64,000 nucleotides of DNA from a virus. The notes under the pieces are model-generated. The model was not told the origin of the DNA. It saw nothing but the letters and a program-made list of their open reading frames with translations, and did not search any database. Location: IMG/VR virus record IMGVR_UViG_3300037011_000606, positions 1-64,000 of that record, one strand, 5' to 3'. Positions 4,883-26,813 of this stretch are shown here, piece after piece; position 1 is the stretch's first letter; the number at the start of each line of letters is the position of its first letter. The position numbers and the translations under genes are program-made.

Positions 4883-5116
4883 ATGACTTTGTTAAAGTTA
4901 ACAACGGTTAAGAATGTTATCATTGAGTGTGTAGCCAAGCAATCGGAGGACGCTAGAGTCTCTGAGAAGGGGGTAGTTGAGTTCTCCAGGGTGTTGGATG
5001 ATTTCTGCAGGGAGTTAGCTTTGAAATCTTGGCGAATGGCCCAGCACGCTCAACGAACGACGATTAAGCCAGAGGATATTCTTATGGCGATGGAGTTAAT
5101 GAGAGGGGGAAGGTAA
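4883..5116 (+). CDS. archaeal histone (HMf/HMt-type histone fold)
   Basis: ARVSEKG...SWRMAQHAQRTTIKPEDILMA matches the HMf RVS and HAxRKTIKxEDI motifs. Confidence 0.85.
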   Translation: MTLLKLTTVKNVIIECVAKQSEDARVSEKGVVEFSRVLDDFCRELALKSWRMAQHAQRTTIKPEDILMAMELMRGGR

Positions 5117-5728: not shown

Positions 5729-5802
5729 ATACTATGCAAGTGACAGCACAAAGCCAATAGTTGGTGGAGTGCTTTCGCAAGTAAGAAAAGGAGGAATAAG
5801 AT

Positions 5803-6111
5803 ATGTGTCCGATAGACGTAAAAACGTTTGAGGCAAAGGGGGAGACCCCTTCGGGTAGGAAGGCAGGACAGACTCGACCGCAGATAGAGAAGTTCTTGTA
5901 CGATAACAAGAACCAGGCTTTCACGACCAGGGAGATCGCGGAGAAGGTCGGCGGAGTCAAGGCAACCGTCAACCACACCGTGAGGAAGCTCACTGAGTCT
6001 GGCAAGGTCGAGAGGAAGGAAGTCGATGGGCTGATATACAACCGCTGGGTGTCCGGCGAGCCCAACCTCACCCCCGATGACGAGGATGAGGAAGTCGACG
6101 ACGAGAAGTAG
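5803..6111 (+). CDS. winged-HTH protein (paralog family), acidic tail
   Basis: PIDVKTFEAKG...IEKFLYDNKNQAFTTREIAEKV...VRKLTESGKVER; GC3-rich. Confidence 0.8.
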   Translation: MCPIDVKTFEAKGETPSGRKAGQTRPQIEKFLYDNKNQAFTTREIAEKVGGVKATVNHTVRKLTESGKVERKEVDGLIYNRWVSGEPNLTPDDEDEEVDDEK

Positions 6112-6130
6112 GTAGGGATCTTTATCCCGT

Positions 6131-6159
6131 GGGTGGGTGGGAAGCATTCCCACTCTCCC
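6131..6159 (+). terminator. stem-loop after wHTH gene, before the tRNA-like genes
   Basis: gggtgggtgggaa-gca-ttcccactctccc imperfect hairpin. Confidence 0.45.
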
Positions 6160-6169
6160 TAAAATTTGT

Positions 6170-6304
6170 GTGTATTGTGGTGTAATGGTGCACACTCTCT
6201 CGGTAAATGGCTCCCAACCCCTCGTCCGATGGTCGCTTAATTCTTCCAAGCGCTCGTCTCCCAACCGATAGGAGAGAGGTGAGGTTCAAGTCCTCCAATA
6301 CGCA
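6170..6304 (+). tRNA. non-canonical tRNA-like gene with BHB intron (6207-6269); spliced anticodon GUA (Tyr-like), 8/4 fold
   Basis: acceptor GTGTATTG/CAATACGC; D arm GTGT-AATGGT-GCAC; T arm GAGG-TTCAAGT-CCTC; BHB helix CGGT/ACCG with AAA and ATA bulges. Confidence 0.65.
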
Positions 6305-6308
6305 TTAT

Positions 6309-6447
6309 GGGCCGATAGCTCAGCCAGGTAGAGCGCGAGTACAAGTCATCCGACGGGATGACAAACCGTTGCTCGAGGTCGTGGATGGCAGGGTTCGCAG
6401 GACGCTGTGAGAAATGCCATTAGTGGGTTCAAATCCCACTCGGCCCA
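6309..6447 (+). ncRNA. tRNA-scaffold RNA with two hairpin insertions and no readable anticodon
   Basis: acceptor GGGCCGA/TCGGCCC-A; D arm GCTC-AGCCAGGTA-GAGC; T arm GTGGG-TTCAAAT-CCCAC; expanded anticodon loop 6341-6370 and insert 6381-6422. Confidence 0.7.
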
Positions 6448-6466
6448 ACAAGAGAAGGTGTAGTAG

Positions 6467-6892
6467 ATGAAAACCGACCCAAATTTTCCGAAATGTGCAG
6501 GATGTATAAGATCGAGTCACAATGCACACTGTGCTTGGGCGATTACAGGTAAGTGTGTAGATGGGAGTGAGTTTATGGTGAAAAATGGTATGCAAGAGAT
6601 GAGTTATGAGGAAAAGAGAAAGTATGTTGAATTGGCTGTGGCTATTGAACTCGCTAACCATTATGAGTTTGTGGCACAAAGTTATTTAGAGAAGGCTATG
6701 AGATTGAAGACAGAGTTTTGGAACTTGGTTAGAATGGGTCATAAGGTTACTACTCCGACGAGAATGGTAGTAAGTGAAGATATGCAGAGTGTGAAGCTAG
6801 AGAAGGCTGAGATTGTTAGGACGGAACTTTTGCCAAGAGTACCTAGAGAAGAGGATGGAAGTGTCAGGGATAAGGCTAGGGTGAAGAAATGA
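6467..6892 (+). CDS. hypothetical protein, N-terminal Cys cluster
   Basis: coupled ORF. Confidence 0.6.
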   Translation: MKTDPNFPKCAGCIRSSHNAHCAWAITGKCVDGSEFMVKNGMQEMSYEEKRKYVELAVAIELANHYEFVAQSYLEKAMRLKTEFWNLVRMGHKVTTPTRMVVSEDMQSVKLEKAEIVRTELLPRVPREEDGSVRDKARVKK

Positions 6893-26606: not shown

Positions 26607-26813
26607 ATGTATTTGTCTATTGGAGATAGGTTAGATGGGCAAATGATCGTCGGAAAAGGAGCTCGCGGGAATATGTTTGTTAAGCATAGAGGGATAATAG
26701 TGTTTATCAAGGGGCCGCCGGAAGCTATCAAGAATTTGAAAGAGGGAGATAAGGTAAGTATAAAGATTATTGAGACTCAGAAGAACTTCGCAGAGGCAGA
26801 GGTGTTAGTGTGA
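26607..26813 (+). CDS. single TRAM-domain RNA-binding protein
   Basis: GKGARGNMFVKHRGIIVFIKG...GDKVSIKIIETQKNFAEAEV. Confidence 0.8.
   Translation: MYLSIGDRLDGQMIVGKGARGNMFVKHRGIIVFIKGPPEAIKNLKEGDKVSIKIIETQKNFAEAEVLV

What the first reader, a model, noticed from the sequence alone, without database searches (positions are those of the whole stretch)
6309..6447. tRNA scaffold carrying two GACG-tetraloop hairpins instead of an anticodon
Seen: perfect acceptor, D and T arms of archaeal type. The anticodon loop is replaced by a 30-nt element containing GTCATCC-GACG-GGATGAC. A 42-nt insertion after the variable loop contains ATGGCA/TGCCAT enclosing TTCGCAG-GACG-CTGTGAG. Both hairpins have the same GACG loop, and neither insert forms a BHB that would restore a normal tRNA. 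The gene starts 4 nt after the first tRNA-like gene. Inference: a structured ncRNA matured by host RNase P and RNase Z that displays two identical protein-binding loops, for example as a decoy or sponge against host defence or translation factors.
Basis: partly seen in the sequence, partly recalled or inferred. Interest (0 to 1): 0.75.

Follow-up and report, generated by a model that had tools for sequence, protein, structure and literature searches.

The report
Non-decoding viral tRNA frame, twin GACG hairpins
A probable archaeal virus carries a gene shaped like an isoleucine tRNA that cannot read codons, because its anticodon loop and a second site each hold the same kind of small hairpin tipped with GACG; it is most likely a tRNA-framed structural RNA whose two tips pair with each other or with another copy.

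Summary
Window 6309-6447 (+) matches the Rfam tRNA model at 41.2 bits (cut-off 29), with intact acceptor, D and T arms. It carries a 30-nt element in place of the anticodon loop and a 42-nt insert before the T stem. Each insert holds an 18-nt hairpin of 7 bp, a GACG tetraloop and a 3' AAA. These are the only two such hairpins in the 95-kb genome, and none of 100,000 shuffles reproduced the pair.

Neither insert has a bulge-helix-bulge motif. No one- or two-segment excision gives a credible anticodon arm, so this is not a multi-intron tRNA.

The frame matches archaeal tRNA-Ile(GAU). A related virus has similarly rebuilt tRNA-like genes at the same slot behind a winged-helix gene, with palindromic tip loops (GACGUC, GAUC). 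A more distant relative has an ordinary tRNA there.

My best reading is a tRNA-framed, non-decoding RNA cut out by host RNase P and tRNase Z. Its twin GACG tips would work like the gammaretroviral "GACG hairpin pair", by loop-loop kissing, or else as twin protein sites. Function is inferred, not shown. This scan has noted similar anticodon-less tRNA look-alikes in other viruses.

The parts
6309..6315 (+). acceptor stem, 5' strand (GGGCCGA)
   Evidence: Pairs perfectly with 6440-6446. Rfam tRNA alignment. Pair probability 0.5-1.0.
6318..6334 (+). D arm (GCTC / AGCCAGGTA / GAGC) with A14, G15, G18G19 and A21
   Evidence: Rfam alignment; sequence read.
6336..6375 (+). rebuilt anticodon arm: outer stem CGAGT/GCTCG enclosing a 30-nt element
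   Evidence: No 7-nt loop with U33 and R37 can be obtained from it.
6345..6365 (+). HP1: 7-bp stem, GACG tetraloop (6352-6355), then AAA (6363-6365)
   Evidence: Pair probability 0.99-1.0.
6376..6380 (+). variable loop AGGTC, with C48 as partner of G15
   Evidence: Identical to the variable loop of Nitrososphaeria tRNA-Ile(GAU).
6381..6422 (+). 42-nt insert at the variable-loop/T-stem junction, flanked by direct GTGG repeats. Outer helix 6385-6390/6415-6420; internal loop GGG/AAA.
6394..6414 (+). HP2: 7-bp stem, GACG tetraloop (6401-6404), then AAA (6412-6414)
   Evidence: Pair probability 0.93-1.0. Four of its 7 pairs differ from HP1 on both sides.
6423..6439 (+). T arm (GTGGG / TTCAAAT / CCCAC)
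   Evidence: Rfam alignment.
6440..6447 (+). acceptor stem 3' strand plus discriminator A; no encoded CCA
6170..6304 (+). context: neighbouring tRNA-like gene with a canonical BHB intron (6207-6269)
   Evidence: Top hit of my BHB scan. Shows the host has a splicing endonuclease.
5803..6111 (+). context: winged-helix (TrmB/MarR-like) gene that precedes the RNA slot in all relatives

Best explanation
This is a gene for a non-decoding, tRNA-framed RNA derived from an archaeal tRNA-Ile.

Shown: the tRNA core is intact (acceptor, D arm, variable loop, T arm and the tertiary-contact bases). There is no anticodon. The two inserts are not removable introns.

Inferred:
1. The RNA is transcribed with its neighbours and released by host RNase P and tRNase Z, as archaeal t-elements are. 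It then receives CCA.
2. The frame holds out two long arms. Each ends in a paralogous 18-nt cassette: a 7-bp stem, a GACG tetraloop and a 3' AAA.
3. GACG tetraloops are self-complementary through their C-G step. Pairs of them are known to kiss in gammaretroviral leaders. The most likely job of the tips is therefore RNA-RNA pairing. That could lock the two arms of one molecule together, or join two or more copies hand in hand. Twin sites for a dimeric protein are the second possibility.

The biological role during infection is unknown.
For: - Frame: RF00005 scores 41.2 bits with all arms aligned.
- Origin: the acceptor, variable loop and T arm match Nitrososphaeria tRNA-Ile(GAU) at 29-30 of 30 positions at the 3' end.
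- No anticodon: exhaustive one- and two-deletion enumeration yields only one contrived arm, and that one has no BHB. The BHB scan is negative here but positive for the neighbour gene.
- Hairpins are not chance.
- Selection-like pattern between HP1 and HP2: loop 4 of 4 and AAA 3 of 3 identical. All 7 pairs are kept although 4 changed on both sides and 1 on one side.
- Stable fold.
- Relatives: in L127/L128 (neighbour protein 75% identical), the same slot holds tRNA-like gene A. Its long anticodon helix ends in the 6-nt palindrome GACGUC. Gene B there is Ile-like, with a long variable arm that has a G/A internal loop and a GAUC/UGAUCA tip. L125 has an ordinary tRNA at that slot.
- Published basis for GACG kissing: PMC7357161 (two C:G pairs, PDB 1F5U), PMC5874298, PMC516450.
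- Published basis for processing of tRNA-like elements in archaea: PMC4326828. In plant mitochondria: PMC1920247.
- The element is identical in a second sample (L126), although 8 SNPs lie just downstream.
Against: - No expression, processing or binding data exist.
- Only one independent sequence carries the twin GACG design; L126 is the same virus. The covariation therefore rests on two paralogous hairpins, and 34 of 500 shuffles matched it.
- Similarity between HP2 and the hairpin of L127 gene A is marginal (15 of 300 shuffles).
- A two-base-pair kiss is weak on its own.
- Whether the arm geometry lets the tips meet was not modelled.
- Palindromic tips in the relatives could be chance, at roughly the few-percent level each.
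- A plain processing signal would explain the intact frame without any role for the hairpins.
Confidence: 0.5

Rival explanations
1. It is a plain t-element. The tRNA-like fold serves only as a cutting signal, so that host RNase P and tRNase Z separate the upstream regulator mRNA from the downstream genes. The rebuilt arms have no function of their own.
For: - It sits between same-strand ORFs with short spacers: 4 nt to the neighbouring RNA gene and 20 nt to the next start codon.
- The parts the two enzymes need are perfectly kept while the anticodon is gone.
- t-elements are established in Haloferax and plant mitochondria (PMC4326828, PMC1920247).
- In some relatives the same place holds only a terminator hairpin.
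Against: It does not explain why two inserts carry the same loop, the same stem length and the same 3' AAA with compensated stems. It also does not explain why the D-loop, variable-loop and T-loop tertiary bases are all kept.
Confidence: 0.2
2. It is a decaying tRNA-Ile pseudogene that picked up two small palindromic insertions and is no longer under selection.
For: - Direct GTGG repeats flank the 42-nt insert, which has inverted ends ATGGCA/TGCCAT. This looks like an insertion footprint.
- The neighbouring and related genes are also aberrant.
- Only close relatives share the design.
Against: - There is no mismatch in the acceptor, D or T stems, and all tertiary bases are kept.
- The hairpins are perfectly paired although their stems have diverged.
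- The genome is compact and complete, with no other copy of such hairpins.
Confidence: 0.1
3. It is a tRNA-scaffolded precursor. The hairpin cassettes are cut at the stem base by a hairpin-specific nuclease (Cas6-like or other) and act as small RNAs, for example as mimics of CRISPR repeats.
For: - HP1 and HP2, and also the hairpin of L127 gene A, share the stem base (xUC...UGAx) and a 3' ARA.
- The 3' flank of HP1 (AAACCG) recalls the end of type I-E repeats. This is from my own knowledge only.
Against: - The two stems differ at 5 of 7 pairs, unlike copies of one repeat.
- The virus has no Cas6 or splicing-endonuclease gene.
- No similar sequence was found in 401 Thermoproteota genomes.
- The host is unknown.
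Confidence: 0.07
4. It is an ordinary multi-intron archaeal tRNA gene. Both inserts are spliced out to give a decoding tRNA.
For: - The neighbouring gene has a canonical BHB intron.
- Archaea of the TACK group have non-canonical introns; one example lies in a D loop among the tRNA-Ile hits.
- ARAGORN in intron mode calls it a tRNA-Ala(GGC).
Against: - No BHB or relaxed BHB lies at either insert.
- No excision of one or two segments gives a 5-bp stem with a 7-nt loop, U33 and R37. The single exception needs a 51-nt and a 15-nt deletion, neither with a BHB.
- The ARAGORN parse needs a mismatched stem and a 43-nt intron that removes the variable loop.
Confidence: 0.04

Closest known systems
Archaeal and organellar t-elements (tRNA-like processing signals; Haloferax 5S rRNA upstream element, plant mitochondria; PMC4326828, PMC1920247)
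   Same: A non-canonical cloverleaf with intact acceptor and T arms, lying between transcribed genes. It is expected to be cut by RNase P and tRNase Z.
   Different: Known t-elements are reduced or degenerate. This one keeps a full tRNA core and adds two elaborate, matched hairpin arms. It is viral, and its processing is untested.
GACG hairpin pair (SL-C/SL-D) of gammaretroviral 5' leaders (Konings 1992, cited in PMC5874298; structure 1F5U described in PMC7357161)
   Same: Two stem-loops, each capped by a GACG tetraloop. The published loops kiss through two C:G pairs and help RNA dimerisation.
   Different: There is no sequence or model homology: no Rfam hit other than tRNA. The hairpins are mounted on a tRNA frame 35 nt apart, in a DNA virus of archaea. 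Kissing is not shown here.
Archaeal intron-containing and multi-intron pre-tRNAs (BHB introns cut by EndA)
   Same: An archaeal-type tRNA body interrupted at the anticodon loop and at a non-canonical site. The neighbouring gene is a true example.
   Different: There is no BHB at either insert, and no excision restores an anticodon arm.
Engineered tRNA scaffolds for RNA expression, and viral tRNA-like RNAs such as the phage T4/T5 stable RNAs in tRNA clusters (own knowledge)
   Same: The tRNA body is used as a stable, correctly processed carrier, with foreign hairpins in place of the anticodon arm. The gene sits next to another tRNA-like gene.
   Different: It is natural, archaeal-viral, has two payload sites, and the payloads are identical-loop hairpins.
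Phage-associated RNAs that form RNA-only multimers through loop-loop contacts (GOLLD, ROOL, manA; PMC12286853, preprint 10.64898/2026.07.01.735769)
   Same: A virus-borne structured RNA with self-complementary tip loops that could join copies.
   Different: It is much smaller, unrelated in sequence and fold, and multimerisation has not been tested.

Membership tests
Canonical tRNA (Rfam RF00005) | Cloverleaf with acceptor, D and T arms scoring above the family cut-off | tested here: met
   41.2 bits against a cut-off of 29, model positions 1-71. Found only with relaxed filters (one search found none).
Canonical tRNA (Rfam RF00005) | 5-bp anticodon stem closing a 7-nt loop with U33, an anticodon and R37 | tested here: not met
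   32 nt replace 9 model positions. No retained 7-mer has U33 and R37.
Archaeal intron-containing pre-tRNA | Bulge-helix-bulge motif (3-nt bulges either side of a 4-bp helix) or a relaxed form at each intron | tested here: not met
   The scanner finds the neighbour's hBHBh' as top hit but none bounding either insert. GGG and AAA lie directly opposite each other, not 4 bp apart.
Archaeal intron-containing pre-tRNA | Excision restores a mature tRNA | tested here: not met
   Enumeration of all one- and two-segment deletions gave only one contrived solution, without a BHB.
t-element | tRNA-like fold with acceptor and T arm but a non-canonical body, placed at transcript boundaries | tested here: met
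   it lies between same-strand ORFs, 20 nt before the next start codon.
t-element | Cleavage by RNase P and tRNase Z at its ends | not testable with these tools
   Needs RNA end mapping or in vitro processing.
Gammaretroviral GACG hairpin pair | Two stem-loops capped by GACG tetraloops | tested here: met
Gammaretroviral GACG hairpin pair | Homology or position in a retroviral 5' leader packaging signal | tested here: not met
   This is a DNA virus with archaeal features. No Rfam family other than tRNA reached even a third of its gathering score at E up to 10.
Gammaretroviral GACG hairpin pair | Loop-loop kissing through the C-G step | not testable with these tools
   Needs native gels, NMR or probing with loop mutants.
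Guanidine-II riboswitch (mini-ykkC) | Two hairpins with ACGR tetraloops upstream of bacterial guanidine-export genes | tested here: not met
   The loops are GACG closed by C-G and G-C; an ACGR register would need a G-G or G-U closing pair. No Rfam hit. The context is archaeal-viral.
Class II tRNA (Leu/Ser type) | Variable arm of about 10-21 nt together with a working anticodon | tested here: not met
   47 nt lie between the anticodon stem and the T stem, and there is no anticodon.
CRISPR repeat mimic (solitary repeat unit) | Sequence matching a host repeat, with copies alike | tested here: inconclusive
   The stems differ at 5 of 7 pairs. No match in 401 Thermoproteota genomes. The host is unknown.

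The most novel reading that the evidence does not exclude
A natural tRNA scaffold that presents a twin GACG kissing-loop module. The RNA would either lock its own two long arms tip to tip, or assemble hand in hand into dimers or larger RNA-only particles during infection of an archaeon. It would be a convergent reinvention of the retroviral GACG hairpin pair. It would also be one member of a wider, undescribed class of tRNA-framed RNAs with self-pairing tips that sit behind winged-helix genes in archaeal viruses.
Probability: 0.25. Interest if true: 0.8.

Novelty: new variant of a known kind. Interest (0 to 1): 0.58.

Why it matters
Viral tRNA genes are usually read as codon-usage helpers. This gene keeps everything a cell needs to recognise, trim and stabilise a tRNA, yet it cannot decode. 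The frame is therefore being used for something else.

If the twin GACG tips pair as they do in retroviral leaders, this would be a simple, testable case of a natural tRNA scaffold carrying an RNA-RNA interaction module in an archaeal virus. Almost no non-coding RNA biology is known for that group.

It is also a practical warning. Default ARAGORN and default Rfam runs both miss the gene.

Tried and rejected
Searches for relatives that led nowhere:
- Default tRNA and Rfam scans found nothing.
- IMG/VR was searched with five DNA patterns: frame with long gap, twin-GACG architecture, T arm plus acceptor and shared 3' stem motif. All returned only unrelated phage tRNAs or chance hits.
- Neighbour proteins and the terminase used as single queries found no relatives in IMG/VR.
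- The 415-aa neighbour has no homologue at all.
- blastn against the phage collection found no match.

Checks on specific ideas:
- The inserts searched in 401 Thermoproteota genomes gave only chance matches inside coding regions.
- No antisense partner or second copy exists in the viral genome; only chance 9-12-mers were found.
- The ARAGORN intron-mode calls, tRNA-Ala(GGC) here and tRNA-Ile(GAT) for the neighbour, were rejected as forced parses.
- The weak BHB that uses the anticodon stem as its central helix (intron 6343-6376) was rejected. It conflicts with HP1 and gives a nonsense product.
- Attachment-site remnant: there is no integrase in a complete genome with terminal repeats.
- C/D-box, K-turn, sarcin-ricin and H/ACA readings of the hairpins were checked by eye and did not fit.
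- Pairing of the GACG loops with two CUCGUC motifs in the neighbour's intron was noted, but it is not conserved in L127 and one motif is buried. I did not pursue it.
- RNAcofold of two copies cannot model kissing and was not used as evidence.

Full report
WHAT IS THERE

The window is the first 64 kb of a complete 95,097-bp virus record with direct terminal repeats and 42.9% G+C. At 6309-6447 on the + strand the sequence reads as a full tRNA body:
- a 7-bp acceptor stem and discriminator A;
- U8, and a D arm with A14, G15, G18G19 and A21;
- G26, a variable loop AGGTC, and a T arm GTGGG/TTCAAAT/CCCAC.

Default ARAGORN and the default Rfam run find nothing in the window. With relaxed filters the Rfam tRNA model matches the whole element at 41.2 bits (cut-off 29, E 2.5e-07). 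It places 32 nt where 9 anticodon-arm positions belong, and about 44 extra nt before the T stem.

THE TWO HAIRPINS

HP1 (6345-6362) and HP2 (6394-6411) are each a 7-bp stem with a GACG tetraloop, and each is followed by AAA.
- They are the only GACG-tetraloop hairpins with at least 5 bp on either strand of the genome.
- In 100,000 shuffles of the 139 nt, 350 gave two separate hairpins of at least 7 bp. None gave two with the same loop.
- Aligned to each other, the loop (4 of 4), the AAA (3 of 3) and the stem base (UC...UGA) are identical. Four of the seven pairs differ on both sides and one differs on one side, yet every pair is kept.
- With only two sequences this is weak statistically: 34 of 500 shuffles did as well. 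Still, it is the pattern expected if stem length, pairing, loop and 3' flank are all constrained.
- Both hairpins, the outer helix of the second insert, the acceptor and the T stem have pair probabilities near 1. The cloverleaf with both arms lies 3.8 kcal/mol above the MFE, which differs only in the D and anticodon outer stems.

NOT AN INTRON-CONTAINING tRNA

I wrote a bulge-helix-bulge scanner. Its top hit in 6141-6470 is the canonical hBHBh' of the neighbouring gene (CGGT/ACCG with bulges AAA and ATA, intron 6207-6269). The method therefore works, and the host evidently has a splicing endonuclease.

Nothing comparable bounds either insert of the target:
- In the second insert the 3-nt strands GGG and AAA face each other instead of lying 4 bp apart.
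- The only strict-geometry candidate in the first insert uses the anticodon stem itself as the central helix. It conflicts with HP1 and yields nonsense.

I then enumerated every way of deleting one or two segments between the D stem and the T stem. I asked for a base at position 26, a 5-bp stem, a 7-nt loop with U33 and R37, and a 4-5-nt variable loop. One solution appeared. It requires deleting 51 nt and 15 nt at sites without any BHB. ARAGORN's intron-mode call of tRNA-Ala(GGC) rests on a mismatched stem and removes the variable loop. A decoding tRNA is effectively excluded.

WHERE THE FRAME COMES FROM

A pattern scan of species-representative genomes for the acceptor plus D-stem start returned mostly bacterial tRNA-Lys/Met and archaeal tRNA-Ile(GAU). 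The archaeal hits were chiefly Nitrososphaeria, with Bathyarchaeia and Halobacteria.
- The Nitrosopumilaceae tRNA-Ile 3' part, from the variable loop to the discriminator, matches the viral gene at 29 of 30 positions.
- Both ends of the viral gene hit that same gene in one genome.

The host is unknown. The evidence points to an archaeon, but only loosely to Thermoproteota:
- the BHB intron next door;
- a histone-fold gene at 4883-5116;
- the archaeal T-loop type.

RELATIVES

The upstream winged-helix gene (5803-6111) has homologues, and I fetched their loci.
- L126 is the same virus from another sample. It is 2,301 bp with eight differences, all within 6450-6530, and both RNA genes are identical.
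- L127 and L128 (protein 75% identical, same downstream gene) carry three odd RNA genes in the same slot:
  - X is a long hairpin with a good BHB (CUGG/CCAG, bulges AUA and AUA).
  - A is an 82-nt cloverleaf-like RNA. Its anticodon arm is a helix of about 11 bp ending in a loop that contains the 6-nt palindrome GACGUC.
  - B is a 127-nt Ile-like gene with GAU inside a 9-nt loop. It has a roughly 50-nt variable arm built like the one here: an outer helix, a GG/AA internal loop, an inner helix and a tip containing GAUC/UGAUCA.
- L125 (58% identical) has an ordinary 60-bit tRNA(CAU) in the slot, plus a BHB-like bounded insert in the preceding hairpin.
- L129-L131 have only a terminator hairpin there.

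So the slot behind this regulator gene holds tRNA genes that have been rebuilt in some lineages. The rebuilt arms tend to end in self-complementary loops. The sequence similarity between HP2 and the helix of gene A is only marginal. I treat the link as suggestive.

HOW IT MOST LIKELY WORKS

Shown: an intact tRNA core, no anticodon, no removable introns, and two matched stable hairpins.

Inferred, step 1. The RNA is co-transcribed with its neighbours. There are 4 nt to the upstream RNA gene and 20 nt to the next start codon, with no terminator between. It is then released by RNase P and tRNase Z, as shown for archaeal t-elements (PMC4326828) and plant mitochondrial ones (PMC1920247).

Inferred, step 2. 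The hairpins are a payload. A pair of GACG-tetraloop hairpins is a described motif of gammaretroviral leaders. There the loops form loop-loop contacts through just two C:G pairs with a stacked A, and they stabilise the RNA dimer (PMC7357161 describing PDB 1F5U; PMC5874298; PMC516450).
- The two arms here are of similar length, about 14 bp plus bulges and about 14 bp plus a 3x3 loop. The tips could therefore meet within one molecule or join two molecules.
- Natural virus-associated RNAs that multimerise through loop contacts are now known (PMC12286853; preprint 10.64898/2026.07.01.735769).
The viral TRAM ORF exists but nothing ties it to this RNA.
- The virus encodes no Cas6, splicing endonuclease or integrase.

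RIVALS

In order of likelihood:
1. A plain processing signal whose arms are free to drift. This fits the position but not the matched hairpins.
2. A decaying pseudogene with palindromic insertions. The GTGG direct repeats and inverted ends of the 42-nt insert look like a footprint. Against it, the frame and stems carry no damage.
3. A precursor of small hairpin RNAs.
4. A spliced tRNA, effectively excluded.

NOVELTY

I found no paper describing such an RNA.

Notes from this scan, which are unchecked AI notes, report several anticodon-less tRNA look-alikes in other archaeal viruses and phages. Some sit behind small DNA-binding-protein genes, and one has anticodon-arm and variable-arm tips that pair. 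The general kind has therefore been seen before by the scan on other DNA. The twin-GACG design is new among them.

I class it as a new variant of a known kind (tRNA-like viral RNA or t-element), of moderate to good interest. It is limited by having a single independent sequence and no expression data.

Noticed in passing
window 6170-6304; L127:4366-4458: The neighbouring tRNA-like gene has a textbook BHB intron (6207-6269). Its positional counterpart in L127/L128 has lost the D and T arms but keeps a good BHB (CUGG/CCAG, bulges AUA and AUA) on a 14-bp hairpin. The BHB-bounded insert, possibly released as a circular RNA, may therefore be the conserved product rather than the exons.
   Followed up: partly
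L125:3290-3410: In a more distant relative, the hairpin after the winged-helix gene (a plain terminator hairpin in L130) carries an insert of about 95 nt bounded by a near-canonical BHB (CCAG/CUGG, bulges AUA and CUA). This is a tRNA-type intron outside any tRNA.
   Followed up: no
window 6450-6530: All eight differences between this genome and the 2.3-kb contig L126 from another sample fall in about 80 nt, right after the tRNA-like gene and in the Cys-rich start of ORF 6467-6892. The other 2.2 kb are identical.
   Followed up: no
window 4883-5116: A 77-aa ORF matches the histone fold (PF00125 5.9e-08, PF00808 2e-07). This is a virus-encoded archaeal-type histone among a run of small winged-helix genes.
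   Followed up: no
window 5800-6450: A local G+C island (about 54% against 43% for the genome) covers the winged-helix gene and both RNA genes. This suggests a module acquired together.
   Followed up: partly
L002:2347-2640; L003:1200-1560: Two unrelated phage contigs carry tandem tRNA genes interrupted by inserts of about 35-50 nt that share the motif CCGAAGTTGAGGGTTATC. The same motif recurs just downstream, so it may be a small mobile insert in phage tRNA genes.
   Followed up: no
L164:960-1061: A 140-kb IMG/VR contig holds a 3' tRNA-Ile(TAT) fragment. Its last 30 nt are identical to the viral gene, and it has a roughly 42-nt insert between the anticodon stem and the variable loop. It may be an attachment-site copy of a host tRNA with a non-canonical intron.
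   Followed up: no
window 26661-26807: A stand-alone TRAM-domain ORF (68 aa, 26.7 bits) lies inside the 7-deazaguanine DNA-modification region.
   Followed up: no
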